This document shows, piece after piece, positions 3,682 to 32,394 of a DNA stretch of 64,000 bases (position 1 is its first letter; each line of letters starts with the position of its first letter). The stretch is from NCBI RefSeq assembly GCF_003334305.1, contig NZ_QOWS01000007.1. One strand, given 5' to 3'. Made by a program: the position numbers and the translations under genes. This DNA comes from Escherichia coli. GTDB taxonomy: Bacteria > Pseudomonadota > Gammaproteobacteria > Enterobacterales > Enterobacteriaceae. The notes below the pieces were generated by a model that saw only the letters and a program-made list of their open reading frames with translations, was not told the DNA's origin and made no database searches.

Positions 3682-5148
3682 TCAGGAGCCCAGACGGTAG
3701 TTCGGGGACTCTTTAGTAATGGTCACGTCGTGAACGTGGCTTTCCTGAATGCCCGCACCGCTGATACGTACAAACTCCGCTTTAGTACGCAGTTCGTCGA
3801 TAGTACCACAGCCGGTCAGACCCATACAGGAGCGCAGGCCGCCCATCTGCTGGTGAATGATCTCTTTCAGGCGACCTTTATAAGCTACGCGACCTTCGAT
3901 ACCTTCCGGCACCAGTTTGTCGGCAGCGTTATCGCTCTGGAAATAACGGTCAGAGGAACCTTTGGACATCGCGCCCAGGGAACCCATACCACGGTAAGAT
4001 TTGTAAGAACGGCCCTGGTAGAGTTCGATTTCACCCGGAGATTCTTCAGTACCCGCCAGCATGGAACCTACCATCACCGCGCTTGCGCCAGCGGCGATAG
4101 CTTTGGCGATGTCGCCGGAGAAGCGAATACCACCATCTGCGATAACCGGAATACCGGTGCCTTCCAGGGCTTCAACTGCGTCAGCAACGGCAGTGATCTG
4201 CGGAACACCTACGCCAGTAACGATACGAGTCGTACAGATAGAACCAGGGCCGATACCGACTTTAACCGCGCTGCAACCAGCTTCTGCCAAAGCGCGTGCA
4301 CCTGCAGCTGTTGCCACGTTGCCGCCGATGATTTGCAGATCCGGATATTTAGCACGGGTTTCACGGATACGCTGCAAAACGCCTTCTGAGTGACCGTGGG
4401 AGGAGTCGATCAGCAGAACGTCAACGCCAGCGGCAACCAGCGCGTCAACACGCTCTTCGTTACCCGCACCTGCGCCAACTGCAGCACCAACACGCAGACG
4501 GCCTTGCTCGTCTTTACAGGCGTTCGGTTTACGTTCCGCTTTCTGGAAGTCTTTCACGGTGATCATGCCGATCAGGTGGAATTCGTCATCAACCACCAGC
4601 GCTTTTTCAACGCGTTTTTCGTGCATTTTTGCCAGCACCACTTCACGGGCTTCACCTTCACGCACGGTGACCAGACGCTCTTTCGGCGTCATGTAAACGC
4701 TAACCGGCTGGTTCAGGTCGGTAACAAAACGCACGTCACGACCGGTGATAATACCCACCAGTTCGTTTTCTTCGGTAACGACCGGATAGCCCGCAAAACC
4801 GTTACGCTCAGTCAGTTCTTTCACTTCGCGCAGCGTCGTGGTTGGCAGAACAGTCTGCGGATCAGTCACCACACCAGATTCGTGTTTTTTCACACGGCGA
4901 ACTTCTTCTGCCTGGCGTTCAATGGACATGTTTTTGTGGATAAAGCCGATACCGCCTTCCTGAGCCAGAGCAATAGCCAGGCGCGCTTCCGTTACGGTAT
5001 CCATTGCTGCGGAAAGCATAGGGATATTCAGACGAATAGTTTTCGTCAGCTGGGTGCTGAGGTCAGCAGTATTCGGCAGAACGGTAGAATGAGCAGGAAC
5101 GAGGAGAACGTCGTCAAACGTCAGAGCTTCTTTAGCGATACGTAGCAT
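3682..5148 (-). CDS. guaB: IMP dehydrogenase, 488 aa
   Basis: ORF-track entry is 511 aa; true start taken at internal ATG giving [18 protein letters not shown] (cat at 5146-5148 on plus strand). Confidence 0.95.
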
Positions 5149-11659: not shown

Positions 11660-11755
11660 CTCTTTCTGAATATAAAAATGAACCCTCAACGCTTCCCTCA
11701 ATGTTTCGGGAGCTATGCGGGTTCAATCATACACGGGAAGCGAGGCGCTTCCCAT
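11660..11755 (-). ncRNA. sroE: candidate SroE sRNA (3'-UTR-derived from ispG) in the ispG-hisS spacer; boundaries approximate
   Basis: 110-bp spacer with hairpin gggaagcgcctcgcttccc downstream of ispG stop; sRNA placement is from memory. Confidence 0.4.
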
Positions 11756-11762
11756 CACGTTA

Positions 11763-12881
11763 TTATTTTTCAACCTGCTGAACGTCAATTCGACGCGCTT
11801 CGTCCAGCTGACTGGCTTTCGCACGAATGCGTGCTTCCAGCTGGTCGATCATATCGTTGTTGTCCAGACGGTCTTTGCGCACGCCATCTTCATAGAGGCC
11901 GCTTTTCTTGTTGCCGCCGGTGACGCCGAGTGTAGAAACCAGCGCCTCACCTGGGCCATTCACCACGCAGCCGATAATCGAAACGTCCATCGGAGTGATG
12001 ATATCTTCCAGGCGTTGCTCCAGCGCGTTAACCGTACCGATAACATCAAATTCCTGACGCGAACAGGTCGGGCAGGCGATGAAGTTGATCCCGCGCGAAC
12101 GGATACGCAGCGATTTCAAAATATCGAAACCGACTTTGATCTCTTCGACCGGATCGGCCGCCAGTGATACGCGCAGCGTGTCGCCGATGCCTTCAGACAG
12201 CAGCAGACCTAAACCAATGGCGGATTTTACTGCCCCGCTGCGTGCACCACCGGCTTCGGTGATCCCCAGATGCAGCGGCTGATCGATCTGTTTTGCCAGC
12301 AAACGATAAGACTCAACAGCGAGGAAGACGTCAGACGCTTTCACGCTGACTTTGAACTGATCGAAGTTCAGGCGATCGAGATGATCAACATGGCGCATGG
12401 CGGATTCCAGCAACGCCTGCGGCGTCGGTTCGCCATACTTTTCTTGCAGATCTTTTTCCAGCGATCCGGCGTTAACGCCAATACGGATCGGAATGTTTTT
12501 ATCGCGCGCACAGTCAACCACCATGCGAATACGCTCTTCATTACCGATATTGCCAGGGTTAATACGCAGACAATCGACGCCGTATTCCGCTACTTTCAGT
12601 GCAATGCGATAGTCGAAGTGGATGTCAGCCACCAGCGGCACGTTAACCTGCTGTTTGATGAGTTTGAACGCTTCTGCCGCGTCCATCGTCGGTACGGAGA
12701 CACGGACGATATCAGCGCCAACGCGTTCCAGCGCCTTGATTTGATTGACCGTTGCTTCGACGTCTGTCGTACGCGTATTGGTCATGGACTGTACGGCGAT
12801 GGGAGCACCATCGCCAATCGGCACATTCCCAACGTAAATACGTGTTGATTTTCTACGTTGAATTGGAGCCTGGTTATGCAT
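11763..12881 (-). CDS. ispG: 4-hydroxy-3-methylbut-2-enyl diphosphate synthase (IspG/GcpE), 372 aa
   Basis: Full-length ORF; C-terminal Cys cluster [10 protein letters not shown]...GCVVNGPGE. Confidence 0.97.
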
Positions 12882-24604: not shown

Positions 24605-24908
24605 TGCGGCCCTTTCCGCCGTCTCGCAAGCGGGCGCTGGCTTAAGGAAAGGATGTTCCGCGACCGTTAGAGCAAGCGCGTCTCAGCGCTTGCTATCGCG
24701 GCAATATCGCCAGTGGTGCTGTCGTGATGCGGTCTTCGCATGGACCGCACAATGAAGATACGGTGCTTCTGTATCGTACTTATTGTTTCTGGTGCGCTGT
24801 TTTCCCAAGTAAATAATAACCGGAGTCTCTCCGGCGACAATTTACTGGTGGTTAACAACCTTCAGAGCAGCAAGTAAGCCCGAATGCCGCCCTTTGGGGC
24901 GGCATATT
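24605..24908 (+). ncRNA. ryfA: RyfA small RNA locus; 5' boundary approximate
   Basis: About 490-bp gap between sseA and sseB with no long ORF; plus-strand terminator at 24886-24910; ryfA placement here is from memory. Confidence 0.45.
24752..24877 (+). CDS. candidate small hydrophobic protein (41 aa) inside ryfA; possible alternative start at 24740 (45 aa)
   Basis: ATG...TAA ORF MKIRCFCIVLIVSGALFSQVNNNRSLSGDNLLVVNNLQSSK ending 8 nt before the terminator hairpin; only a weak SD (GGA). Confidence 0.3.
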   Translation: MKIRCFCIVLIVSGALFSQVNNNRSLSGDNLLVVNNLQSSK

Positions 24909-24910
24909 TT
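24886..24910 (+). terminator. rho-independent terminator at the 3' end of ryfA, overlapping the sseB stop
   Basis: gccgccctttggggcggc hairpin followed by atatttt. Confidence 0.6.
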
Positions 24911-32283: not shown

Positions 32284-32394
32284 TGCTCTATAAACTCCGT
32301 ACATCACTCAATGCAAGGAATCAGGCTACCGGCTGGATGTACGACCGTGTTTACGGAGTATTTAGCACTCCGGCCTGATTCTGAATTCTTTTTA

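What the first reader, a model, noticed from the sequence alone, without database searches (positions are those of the whole stretch)
24740..24877. Short hydrophobic ORF inside the ryfA sRNA locus
Within the sseA-sseB gap the plus strand has an ATG-to-TAA ORF (24752-24877, 41 aa; in-frame ATG at 24740 would give 45 aa) encoding MKIRCFCIVLIVSGALFSQVNNNRSLSGDNLLVVNNLQSSK. It has a basic N-terminus, a 13-residue hydrophobic core and a polar tail, and it ends 8 nt before the ryfA terminator hairpin. That architecture is typical of small membrane proteins and type I toxins carried by dual-function sRNAs. From memory, the Salmonella ryfA homologue encodes a small toxic protein (TimP) controlled by an antisense sRNA (TimR); whether the E. 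coli copy is translated is not visible here. The SD is weak (GGA 7 nt upstream).
Basis: partly seen in the sequence, partly recalled or inferred. Interest (0 to 1): 0.55.

Follow-up and report, generated by a model that had tools for sequence, protein, structure and literature searches.

The report
E. coli timP small toxin gene

Summary
The ORF at 24752-24877 (+) exists exactly as described and encodes the stated 41-aa peptide. It lies in a full-length Rfam ryfA match (24606-24910, 317.9 bits). RefSeq annotates these coordinates as timP, "small toxic inner membrane protein TimP". The peptide scores 79.6 bits against NCBIfam NF040796 (cutoff 45).

All 17 ryfA homologues I collected, from seven genera, keep an intact 38-41-codon frame from the same ATG. 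Every indel is a whole number of codons, and between-genus dN/dS is about 0.25-0.36. The alternative ATG at 24740 is AAG in 5 of 17 homologues and in Salmonella, so the 45-aa form is unlikely.

The partner gene is also present. A roughly 97-nt minus-strand sRNA (about 24528 to 24432) has a 5' end perfectly complementary over 17 nt to stem-loop 2 of the timP leader. Seed and target co-vary across taxa.

[quoted passage not shown] I could not map the site 1-2 pairing of the inactive state.

The system is published: Salmonella (2020, 2024, 2026) and Shigella RyfA1/RyfB1 (2017). Translation and toxicity of the E. coli peptide remain untested.

The parts
24752..24877 (+). timP ORF: 41 codons plus TAA, encoding the small hydrophobic protein TimP
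   Evidence: Searches give the sequence. RefSeq CDS timP WP_001385884.1 has identical coordinates. NCBIfam NF040796 scores 79.6 bits against a cutoff of 45. The frame is intact in 17/17 homologues with only whole-codon indels, and between-genus dN/dS is 0.25-0.36.
24740..24742 (+). Alternative in-frame ATG (45-aa version), in the loop of SL4; probably not the start
   Evidence: It is AAG in 5/17 homologues and in Salmonella. The NCBIfam model begins at M1 of the 41-aa form. In Salmonella, mutating the ATG homologous to 24752 abolishes the protein (PMC7667032).
24606..24910 (+). timP mRNA, historically called the 'ryfA sRNA'
   Evidence: Rfam RF00126 full-length match, 317.9 bits, E=1.6e-89. 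The fold z-score is -6.3. The 5' end is inferred from the Rfam model and from the ORF offset of +147, compared with +145 from the mapped Salmonella TSS (PMC7667032).
24595..24600 (+). Candidate timP -10 box TATTAT, 6 nt before the inferred 5' end
   Evidence: Read from the sequence and conserved in the K-12 and O157 alleles. The scan tool instead proposes TTGTCA-16-TATTGT at 24557-24584, which would start transcription about 14 nt earlier. This is unresolved.
24611..24652 (+). SL1 of the timP leader: lower stem CCTTTCC/GGAAAGG plus an inner hairpin
   Evidence: Rfam structure. 96-100% of cells are paired across 16 sequences, with compensatory changes.
24635..24641 (+). Pseudoknot site 1 (CGCTGGC), in upper SL1
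   Evidence: It pairs with 24709-24715. All 7 pairs are 100% paired in 16 sequences, and 3 pairs show changes on both sides. The Salmonella equivalent is essential for translation (PMC11228461).
24662..24667 (+). Site 2 (GACCGT), complementary to the 5' arm of SL4
   Evidence: 6 pairs with 24729-24734, 100% pairable in 16 sequences. Covariation cannot be assessed here because SL4 was my search pattern. It corresponds to Salmonella C57/C58/G59 (PMC13000454).
24672..24693 (+). SL2. Positions 24672-24688 are the TimR target and contain the 'CGCGT' variable region
   Evidence: A 17-nt perfect repeat of 24512-24528. SL2 is 95% paired. Fris 2017 defines the variable-region types (PMC5333039).
24695..24728 (+). 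SL3. Its upper stem and loop carry pseudoknot site 3, GCCAGTG at 24709-24715
   Evidence: Rfam structure; pair counts.
24729..24748 (+). SL4 hairpin, which sequesters the Shine-Dalgarno GGA (24742-24744)
   Evidence: It is invariant in my sample by construction. The SD trapped in SL4 was shown by structure probing in Salmonella (PMC11228461).
24884..24905 (+). Intrinsic terminator of timP: 9-bp stem, 4-nt loop, then a T-run
24432..24528 (-). TimR (RyfB-like) antitoxin sRNA, about 97 nt. Both ends are inferred, not mapped
   Evidence: Minus-strand sequence. The fold shows an unstructured 5' seed, a small hairpin and a terminator, with z = -4.5. Transcripts of about 100 nt were detected at the equivalent position in Shigella (PMC5333039).
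24512..24528 (-). TimR 5' seed, perfectly complementary to timP leader 24672-24688
   Evidence: The cognate duplex is -43.3 kcal/mol, against -25 to -33 for non-cognate alleles. Cognate matches are 15-18 of 18 in 15/17 taxa, against a non-cognate mean of 12.5.
24535..24563 (-). Candidate timR promoter: -35 TTGACA (24563-24558), 17-nt spacer, -10 GAGTAT (24540-24535)
   Evidence: Read. The -10 matches only 3/6, so the scan did not list it. The predicted start at about 24528 coincides with the start of complementarity.
24433..24460 (.). Bidirectional terminator hairpin shared by sseA (+) and timR (-)
   Evidence: Sequence; fold.
24501..24546 (+). Body of the timR gene, a diverged direct duplicate of timP leader 24663-24714
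   Evidence: Local alignment score 42, against a shuffle mean of 14 and maximum of 25.

Best explanation
The ORF is timP, the toxin gene of the enterobacterial timP/TimR type I toxin-antitoxin-like module. The 'ryfA sRNA' is its mRNA.

Shown from sequence and comparison:
- The window holds a complete module. The timR gene and the timP gene are transcribed divergently from a shared promoter region between sseA and sseB.
- The 41-codon frame is under coding constraint across genera.
- The TimR 5' end is perfectly complementary to SL2 of the timP leader, and the two co-vary.
- The SD lies inside hairpin SL4.

Inferred by homology to the Salmonella system (PMC7667032, PMC11228461, PMC13000454):
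- The primary transcript folds into an inactive form with the SD locked in SL4.
- A structural rearrangement forms the pseudoknot. Site 2 can then invade SL4 and free the SD, so that 30S subunits initiate at ATG 24752.
- TimR binds the SL2 loop of the active form, disrupts the pseudoknot and keeps translation off. TimP is therefore made only when TimR is depleted.
- TimP inserts into the inner membrane through its uncleaved, signal-sequence-like N-terminus. At high dose it makes the membrane leaky and stops growth.

Whether the E. coli allele is translated and toxic is inference only.
For: - Exact ORF and peptide.
- Rfam ryfA match at 317.9 bits.
- RefSeq timP CDS at identical coordinates.
- NCBIfam toxic_TimP at 79.6 bits, cutoff 45.
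- The locus is present in 5426/5426 complete E. coli genomes, and timP is annotated in 30/30 and 59/60 evenly sampled genomes.
- The frame is intact in 17/17 homologues from seven genera. Indels are whole codons only. dN/dS is 0.25-0.36, with stronger constraint on the hydrophobic N-terminal half (pN/pS 0.32 against 0.62).
- Shortened E. coli variants are in-frame deletions.
- TimR seed and target: 17-nt perfect match, co-variation matrix, duplex energies, fold with terminator.
- The pseudoknot is 100% paired with 3 compensatory pairs, and sites 2-4 are 100% pairable.
- The synteny matches the Salmonella locus and the mRNA is 77% identical to it.
- Experimental basis in Salmonella: PMC7667032, PMC11228461, PMC13000454. 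In Shigella: PMC5333039.
Against: - I found no direct evidence that the E. coli peptide is made. PMC13188913 (2026) says this remains to be determined.
- A translational reporter in Shigella gave no protein (PMC5333039).
- ORF-disrupted ryfA alleles fully complement UPEC ryfA-deletion phenotypes (PMC8205139). The known E. coli phenotypes are therefore RNA-level.
- Deleting timR has minimal effect in APEC (PMC13188913).
- Within Escherichia, pN/pS is about 1.1. Few substitutions are involved, so it is uninformative rather than contrary.
- The C-terminal tail differs greatly from Salmonella TimP (59% identity overall), so toxicity may not transfer.
- Some lineages carry start-region deletions: E. 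albertii P0016, S. sonnei P0049 and E. coli P0033.
- The TimR ends and both promoters are inferred, not mapped.
Confidence: 0.88

Rival explanations
1. Dual-function RNA. The transcript is both the timP mRNA and a trans-acting riboregulator, and in E. coli the RNA activity accounts for the known stress, motility, fimbriae and virulence phenotypes. This adds to the best explanation rather than excluding it.
For: - Three ORF-disrupting ryfA alleles still complement a CFT073 ryfA deletion (PMC8205139).
- ProQ binds RyfA in APEC (PMC10664665).
- RyfA1 overproduction lowers ompC mRNA in Shigella (PMC5333039).
- The RNA is highly structured beyond what the ORF needs (z = -6.3).
Against: - No direct target duplex has been defined in the papers I read.
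- The conserved leader structure is already explained by the translation switch (PMC13000454).
- The phenotypes could be indirect.
- Nothing in the sequence tested here identifies a trans-acting seed.
Confidence: 0.4
2. TimP is translated, but its native role is not killing. It would be a small inner-membrane protein with a regulatory or structural function, and toxicity would be an overexpression artefact.
For: - In Salmonella, native-level TimP in a timR deletion strain does not slow growth and only mildly induces cpxP. The authors themselves decline to assign a toxic function (PMC7667032).
- Deleting timR has minimal effect in APEC (PMC13188913).
- The locus is chromosomal, syntenic and universal in E. 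coli rather than mobile.
Against: - Tight multilayer repression, a co-evolving antisense partner and a divergent-duplicate gene architecture are the hallmarks of type I toxin modules.
- Loss-of-function selection shows the protein is lethal when expressed from a heterologous promoter in the E. coli chromosome (PMC13000454).
Confidence: 0.3
3. In E. coli the ORF is a vestige. ryfA acts only as a non-coding RNA, and the frame stays open because of RNA-structure constraint and recent common ancestry.
For: - Within-Escherichia pN/pS is about 1.1.
- No E. coli protein has been detected in the literature (PMC13188913, PMC5333039).
- The SD is buried.
- The phenotypes are ORF-independent (PMC8205139).
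Against: - The frame is open in 17/17 homologues at pS of about 0.6 between genera, and indels are whole codons only.
- In-frame 4-6-codon deletions occur inside E. coli itself.
- The hydrophobic half is nearly invariant in dozens of Escherichia variants.
- The cognate TimR and every element needed to open the SD are retained. These have no known purpose other than translational control.
Confidence: 0.1
4. Translation starts at ATG 24740 and gives a 45-aa protein, MDRT-MKIR..., as assumed for CFT073 in PMC8205139.
For: - The ATG is in frame and present in all six Escherichia alleles, and in Citrobacter, three of the four Yersinia, Superficieibacter and Pantoea.
- Some database entries are annotated with MDR(T/A)M extensions: P0020 and P0081.
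Against: - The codon is AAG in 5/17 homologues and in Salmonella.
- It lies in the SL4 loop with no SD upstream.
- The GGA that serves the downstream ATG would lie inside this ORF.
- The family model and PGAP use the 41-aa start.
- In Salmonella, ATG-to-AAG at the downstream start abolishes the protein (PMC7667032).
Confidence: 0.04

Closest known systems
Salmonella enterica timP/TimR, formerly ryfA/STnc2070 (Andresen 2020; Eleftheraki & Holmqvist 2024; Eleftheraki 2026)
   Same: - Same position between sseA and sseB and the same Rfam family.
- The mRNA is 77% identical.
- The ORF starts at the same place after SL4 (+147 against +145).
- The first 16 residues match at 15 positions.
- The antisense sRNA is divergent, its 5' end pairs with the SL2 loop, and it ends in an intrinsic terminator.
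[quoted passage not shown]
   Different: - The protein is 41 aa rather than 38 aa, and the polar tail is unrelated in sequence (overall 59% identity).
- The SGALFSQ region lacks the Salmonella Ala20-Asp21 predicted cleavage motif.
- E. coli has no STM2534 ORF between sseA and timR.
- The seed/target sequence differs (CGCGT type against GCACGCCGTAG).
- The window has an extra in-frame ATG in the SL4 loop.
- No experiments exist on this allele.
Shigella dysenteriae RyfA1/RyfB1 and RyfA2/RyfB2 (Fris 2017)
   Same: It is the same gene family and is nearly identical in sequence. The 5-nt 'variable region' of that paper lies in the SL2 loop, and the window carries the CGCGT ('ryfA1-like') type. RyfB1 is the TimR equivalent, with 16-17 nt of complementarity.
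   Different: S. dysenteriae has two tandem modules, and the window has one. That paper treated RyfA1 as a non-coding regulator and did not detect a protein.
tisB/istR-1, zorO/orzO, shoB/ohsC and dinQ/agrB: divergently encoded type I TA loci of E. coli
   Same: - A small hydrophobic inner-membrane toxin.
- The antitoxin sRNA is encoded divergently next to the toxin gene and pairs with the 5' UTR far upstream of a structurally sequestered RBS.
- In tisB a pseudoknot promotes ribosome loading.
- The window's TimR region weakly resembles the Rfam AgrB model (29.8 bits, below the cutoff of 40).
   Different: - timP mRNA is activated by refolding, not by ribonucleolytic processing (PMC11228461).
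- TimP has a signal-sequence-like N-terminus rather than a plain transmembrane helix (PMC7667032).
- No SOS/LexA control is known.
- TimP has no sequence similarity to TisB, ZorO, ShoB or DinQ.
Dual-function sRNAs that encode small proteins (SgrS/SgrT, RNAIII/delta-hemolysin, SR1/SR1P)
   Same: An RNA first catalogued as an sRNA that contains a conserved small ORF. ORF-independent phenotypes are reported for E. coli ryfA (PMC8205139).
   Different: No base-pairing target of RyfA other than TimR has been defined. Here the structured 5' part serves translational control of its own ORF.

Membership tests
TimP protein family (NCBIfam NF040796 toxic_TimP) | The whole-protein score exceeds the curated cutoff of the family HMM | tested here: met
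   79.6 bits against a cutoff of 45, covering residues 1-40 of 41 and profile positions 1-40 of 40. Database homologues are named TimP.
ryfA / timP mRNA (Rfam RF00126) | Full-length match to the covariance model above the gathering score | tested here: met
   317.9 bits against a gathering score of 80, model positions 1-296 of 296, window 24606-24910 on the + strand.
timP/TimR module | Conserved genomic position between sseA and sseB | tested here: met
   Order yfhM-sseA-timP-sseB-pepB in the window and in Salmonella.
timP/TimR module | Conserved small ORF starting just after the SD-sequestering hairpin, under coding constraint | tested here: met
   Intact in 17/17 homologues, whole-codon indels only, dN/dS 0.25-0.36 between genera.
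timP/TimR module | An sRNA gene lying divergently upstream whose 5' end is complementary to SL2 of the timP 5' UTR and which is followed by an intrinsic terminator | tested here: met
   17-nt perfect complementarity between 24512-24528 and 24672-24688. Terminator at 24433-24460. Cognate versus non-cognate matrix and duplex energies. The transcript itself was not observed.
timP/TimR module | RNA switch: SD sequestered in SL4, SL1-SL3 pseudoknot, and site 2 complementary to the 5' arm of SL4 | tested here: met
   All elements map to the window. The pseudoknot is 100% paired with 3 of 7 pairs compensatory, and sites 2-4 are 100% pairable. SL4 is invariant. The inactive-state site 1-2 pairing could not be mapped convincingly.
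timP/TimR module | The ORF is translated, and TimR represses that translation | not testable with these tools
   Shown only for Salmonella (PMC7667032). Stated to be undetermined for E. coli (PMC13188913).
Type I toxin-antitoxin system (general) | The small protein is toxic on overexpression and damages the inner membrane | not testable with these tools
   Salmonella TimP is toxic, also when expressed in E. coli (PMC7667032, PMC13000454). This E. coli allele has not been tested.
Type I toxin-antitoxin system (general) | Toxin under 60 aa with a hydrophobic membrane segment, and an RNA antitoxin acting by base pairing | tested here: met
   41 aa with a 13-residue core of mean KD +2.8. The antisense partner is shown at sequence level.
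Sec signal-sequence-bearing small protein | n-h-c signal-peptide architecture recognised by a dedicated predictor | tested here: inconclusive
   The layout looks like n (MKIR), h (CFCIVLIV) and c (SGA...). The only PDB near-matches are leader peptides of secreted proteins, at non-significant E-values of 0.05-1. SignalP and Phobius were not available. PMC8205139 reports a predicted Sec signal for the CFT073 version.
Dual-function sRNA | A trans-acting regulatory activity of the RNA that does not depend on its ORF | not testable with these tools
   The only evidence is from the literature: complementation by ORF-disrupted alleles (PMC8205139). No target seed was identified here.

The most novel reading that the evidence does not exclude
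E. coli carries several orthogonal 'lock-and-key' TimR/timP specificity alleles. The SL2-loop types CGCGT, TGTTT and CACCC each co-vary with their own TimR seed. Recombination has shuffled them, so some strains are mismatched. In K-12 the adjacent timR matches this window's timP (-43.3 kcal/mol) and not K-12's own (-32.7), and K-12 timP depends on a distal second timR copy (-39.4). If TimP is really translated in E. coli, repression strength, and so TimP leakiness and any stress or virulence phenotype, would depend on the allele combination. The matched single module in this window would then be the tightly repressed state.
Probability: 0.3. Interest if true: 0.4.

Novelty: already known. Interest (0 to 1): 0.15.

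Why it matters
The finding adds no new biology. The gene, its antisense regulator and its unusual translation switch are published and annotated in RefSeq.

It does show that a tool-less reader can recover a genuine small-protein gene hidden in an 'sRNA'.

For E. coli specifically, one open question remains: whether TimP is ever made and what it does. ryfA deletion phenotypes in UPEC and APEC are ORF-independent, while the sequence shows clear coding constraint and a complete, co-evolving repression apparatus.

The window allele is a single, perfectly matched timR/timP pair and is at least 99% identical in about a quarter of complete E. coli genomes. It would be a cleaner experimental model than K-12, whose locus is a rearranged two-timR chimera.

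Tried and rejected
Most hits were chance G+C-rich matches and only 19 of 120 loci were Enterobacterales. It missed Salmonella because its stem ends GACCGCAAC. SL4 is therefore invariant in my sample by construction, which says nothing about covariation.

I replaced it with a profile search.

3. I looked for E. coli ribosome-profiling or tagging evidence for this ORF in the paper library and found none.

4. Within-Escherichia pN/pS is about 1.1, based on very few substitutions. I treat it as uninformative, not as evidence of relaxed constraint.

5. The longer 63-aa antisense ORF (24667-24858, minus strand) is rejected. It is broken by stops in 5/17 homologues, and it is the expected shadow of a sense ORF.

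6. The 45-aa start is rejected.

7. The Rfam AgrB resemblance of TimR is below threshold in the window (29.8 against 40). It is driven largely by the terminator and is not taken as homology.

8. An extra 5-bp pairing between the TimR hairpin loop (ACGGU) and site 2 appears in the window-type duplex. By eye it is not conserved in the K-12 distal or O157 TimR sequences, so it is not proposed as part of the mechanism.

9. I could not map the inactive-state site 1-2 pairing of the 2026 model onto the window with confidence.

10. The promoter scan did not list the timR promoter because its -10 matches only 3/6. It also offers a timP promoter that would start about 14 nt upstream of the Rfam 5' end. 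The transcription starts remain inferred.
Full report
**Observation.** The window is E. coli chromosome. The sseA-sseB intergenic region (24417-24908) is 100% identical to strain H15 and is found in all 5426 complete E. coli genomes searched. The plus strand carries an ATG (24752) to TAA (24875-24877) ORF of 41 codons. It encodes MKIRCFCIVLIVSGALFSQVNNNRSLSGDNLLVVNNLQSSK, and an in-frame ATG at 24740 would add MDRT.

The peptide has two basic residues at its N-terminus and a 13-residue hydrophobic core with a mean Kyte-Doolittle value of +2.8. The tail is polar and the net charge is +3. GGA lies 7 nt upstream of the ATG, as stated.

Length alone is not remarkable. The same 492-bp gap holds at least eight other ORFs of 20 aa or more, including a 63-aa antisense ORF.

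**What it is.** The region 24606-24910 is a full-length match to Rfam ryfA (RF00126) at 317.9 bits, E = 1.6e-89. In the identical RefSeq genome, PGAP annotates a CDS at exactly the ORF's coordinates as timP, 'small toxic inner membrane protein TimP' (WP_001385884.1). K-12 and O157:H7 are annotated the same way. The peptide scores 79.6 bits against NCBIfam NF040796 (toxic_TimP), whose curated cutoff is 45. The 45-aa version aligns from its residue 5.

**Literature.**
- Andresen et al. 2020 (PMC7667032) showed that Salmonella ryfA encodes the 38-aa inner-membrane protein TimP. An ATG-to-AAG mutation abolishes both the protein and its toxicity. Overexpression makes membranes leaky. The divergent sRNA TimR pairs with the 5' UTR to block translation. 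[quoted passage not shown]
- Eleftheraki & Holmqvist 2024 (PMC11228461) and Eleftheraki et al. 2026 (PMC13000454) defined the mechanism. The SD is trapped in stem-loop SL4. A pseudoknot between SL1 and SL3 (sites 1-3) and a pairing of site 2 with the 5' arm of SL4 (site 4) are required for initiation. TimR binds the SL2 loop and destabilises the pseudoknot.
- Fris et al. 2017 (PMC5333039) described the same locus in Shigella as RyfA1/RyfB1, with a 5-nt variable region. The types are CGCGT, CACCC and CCCCC ('ryfA1-like') and TGTTT (ryfA2).

I scanned species-representative genomes with a pattern from the SL4 hairpin, which lies upstream of the ORF body and so does not favour intact ORFs. I then located ryfA with the Rfam model.

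Together with the window, K-12 and O157, this gave 17 full-length homologues: six Escherichia, four Yersinia, three Rahnella, and one each of Citrobacter, Superficieibacter, Erwinia and Pantoea.
- All 17 keep an intact ORF of 38-41 codons starting at the same ATG just after SL4.
- All length differences are whole codons.
- Between-genus dN/dS is 0.25-0.36. Constraint is stronger on the hydrophobic N-terminal half (pN/pS 0.32) than on the tail (0.62).
- In the same span the +1 frame has at least 2 stops in every sequence, and the +2 frame has stops in 15 of 17.
- The 63-aa antisense ORF is broken by stops in 5 of 17.

Within Escherichia, pN/pS is about 1.1, but this rests on very few changes. 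Shortened E. coli database variants (35-37 aa) are in-frame deletions of 4-6 codons in the tail, and the CFCIVLIVSGAL core is nearly invariant. In evenly spaced samples of the E. coli genome ranking, timP is annotated in 30 of 30 and 59 of 60 genomes. The SL4-ORF-terminator segment covers at least 80% of the query in 5410 of 5426 genomes, and every match is at least 90% identical. The refutation criterion is therefore not met: the frame is conserved.

**Which start codon.** The upstream ATG (24740) sits in the SL4 loop. It is AAG in 5 of 17 homologues and in Salmonella. The family model, PGAP and the Salmonella start-codon mutant all point to the ATG homologous to 24752. The 45-aa form assumed for CFT073 in PMC8205139 is therefore unlikely.

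**The partner sRNA.** The segment 24512-24528 is a perfect 17-nt direct repeat of 24672-24688 in the timP leader. A minus-strand transcript through it is therefore perfectly antisense to the SL2 loop region.

On the minus strand there is a perfect -35 box (TTGACA, 24563-24558), a 17-nt spacer and a weak -10 box (GAGTAT, 24540-24535). These would place the 5' end at about 24528, exactly where complementarity starts. The RNA would end at the bidirectional terminator shared with sseA (24433-24460), giving about 97 nt. That RNA folds with an open 5' seed, a small hairpin and the terminator, with z = -4.5. Both ends and the promoter are inferred, and the scan tool did not list this promoter.

Across taxa the seed and target differ in sequence but stay matched. 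The best 18-nt window is 15-18 of 18 for cognate pairs in 15 of 17 taxa, against a non-cognate mean of 12.5. Duplex energies are:
- window TimR with window timP: -43.3 kcal/mol
- K-12 distal TimR with K-12 timP: -39.4 kcal/mol
- O157 TimR with O157 timP: -40.0 kcal/mol
- non-cognate combinations: -25 to -33 kcal/mol

The body of the timR gene (24501-24546) is a diverged direct duplicate of leader positions 24663-24714 (score 42, shuffle maximum 25). This is the usual origin of divergent type I antitoxins.

**The translation switch in this window.** I used the Rfam structure and a 16-sequence alignment. Elements map as follows:

| Element | Window coordinates |
|---|---|
| SL1 | 24611-24652 |
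| Pseudoknot site 1 (CGCTGGC) | 24635-24641 |
| Site 2 (GACCGT) | 24662-24667 |
| SL2 | 24672-24693 |
| SL3 | 24695-24728 |
| Pseudoknot site 3 (GCCAGTG) | 24709-24715 |
| SL4 | 24729-24748 |
| Site 4 (GCGGTC) | 24729-24734 |
| SD (GGA) | 24742-24744 |

- The pseudoknot is paired in 100% of cells, and 3 of its 7 pairs show changes on both sides, in 8, 6 and 2 sequences respectively.
- Sites 2-4 are 100% pairable.
- The whole structure pairs 96% of cells, against 37-54% when partners are slid by 1-3 columns.
- SL4 is invariant in my sample because it was the search pattern.
- I could not map the inactive-state site 1-2 pairing with confidence.

**Mechanism (shown versus inferred).** Shown here: module architecture, coding constraint, seed-target co-variation, and presence of the switch elements listed above. 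Inferred from Salmonella experiments: refolding-dependent initiation at 24752, TimR-mediated repression, membrane insertion through an uncleaved signal-like N-terminus, and dose-dependent toxicity.

Some evidence argues for caution in E. coli:
- No protein was detected from a Shigella reporter (PMC5333039).
- ORF-disrupted alleles complement UPEC ryfA-deletion phenotypes (PMC8205139).
- Deleting timR has little effect in APEC, and that paper states that the coding question remains open (PMC13188913).

These results are compatible with a tightly repressed toxin plus an additional RNA-level function. They do not show that the peptide is never made.

**Comparison with known systems.** The window's module is an orthologue of Salmonella timPR. 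It shares synteny, its mRNA is 77% identical, and the protein is 59% identical with a near-identical N-terminal half. It differs in tail sequence, in length (41 against 38 aa), in seed sequence, and in lacking the STM2534 ORF. In the Shigella nomenclature it is a CGCGT-type 'ryfA1-like' allele with its RyfB partner.

It works like the divergent type I TA loci tisB/istR-1, zorO/orzO and dinQ/agrB. It differs from them in using structural rather than nucleolytic activation. No solved structure matches TimP.

**Verdict.** The feature is already known and annotated. The only open point is experimental: translation and function of the E. coli peptide.

Noticed in passing
L002 (E. coli K-12/MC4100) 1498-2314; cores at 1598-1613 and 1919-1935: The K-12 sseA-sseB gap is 817 bp against 492 bp in the window. 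It holds two timR copies and a 5' stub of a second timP. The timR next to timP is the window (CGCGT) type and fits K-12's own timP poorly (13/18, -32.7 kcal/mol). The distal timR is the cognate one (-39.4). K-12 therefore looks like a recombinant with a mismatched adjacent antitoxin.
   Followed up: partly
window 24430-24511 (-); L104 1439-1519: The TimR region gives a sub-threshold match to Rfam AgrB (RF02891, the dinQ antitoxin): 29.8 bits against a gathering score of 40. The equivalent RNA in Pantoea latae just passes, at 40.7 bits. The match is probably driven by shared architecture and the terminator, but a distant relationship between TimR and AgrB is not excluded.
   Followed up: no
window 24544-24579: A 14-bp-arm palindrome (AGTAACTCTCTTTTTGTCAAGCAAAAGAGAGTTATT) lies between timR and timP. 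It contains the timR -35 box TTGACA and its mirror TTGTCA on the other strand. It could be a shared regulator site or simply overlapping divergent promoters. The O157 allele keeps it only in part.
   Followed up: no
window 24501-24546 vs 24663-24714: The timR gene body is a diverged direct duplicate of part of the timP leader (local score 42, shuffle maximum 25). The antitoxin therefore probably arose by duplicating the leader and reading it from the opposite strand.
   Followed up: yes
window 24501-24505 vs 24663-24667: In this allele the loop of the small TimR hairpin (ACGGU) is complementary to site 2 of the timP leader (ACCGU). This extends the predicted duplex beyond the 17-nt core. By eye the K-12 distal and O157 TimR sequences lack it.
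   Followed up: partly
L117 (Yersinia similis) 4361-4837: This ryfA copy has a rearranged 5' part that resembles TimR sequence and shows no TimR-like match upstream (12/18). An Rfam Ysr224 sRNA (RF02770, 133.9 bits) lies directly upstream on the same strand. The ORF is intact.
   Followed up: no
L067, L068, L069 (Yersinia pekkanenii): At least three ryfA/timP copies occur in one genome. In E. coli, up to 3 places per genome were seen (5604 places in 5426 genomes).
   Followed up: no
proteins P0016 (E. albertii), P0033 (E. coli), P0049 (Shigella sonnei): In these variants the timP start region is altered, apparently by deletion, and the hydrophobic core is fused to an upstream frame or truncated. 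This looks like lineage-specific decay or re-wiring of translation control.
   Followed up: no
H90, NZ_CP044293.1 (E. coli P276M) 1050411-1050455: In one of the 60 sampled genomes only 25% of the SL4-ORF-terminator segment is present and no timP is annotated. This is probably a deletion of the toxin gene. In total, 16 of 5426 genomes lack 80% coverage.
   Followed up: no
window 24667-24858 (-): A 63-aa antisense ORF overlaps timP. It is interrupted by stops in 5 of 17 homologues, so it is a shadow of the sense frame and not a gene.
   Followed up: yes
window 61629-61776 (-), 32285-32394 (-), 11672-11763 (-): Other Rfam matches above the gathering score in the window are GlmY (147.1 bits), the iscRS stability element (138.1 bits) and sroE (114.6 bits). 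All are expected for this part of the E. coli chromosome.
   Followed up: no
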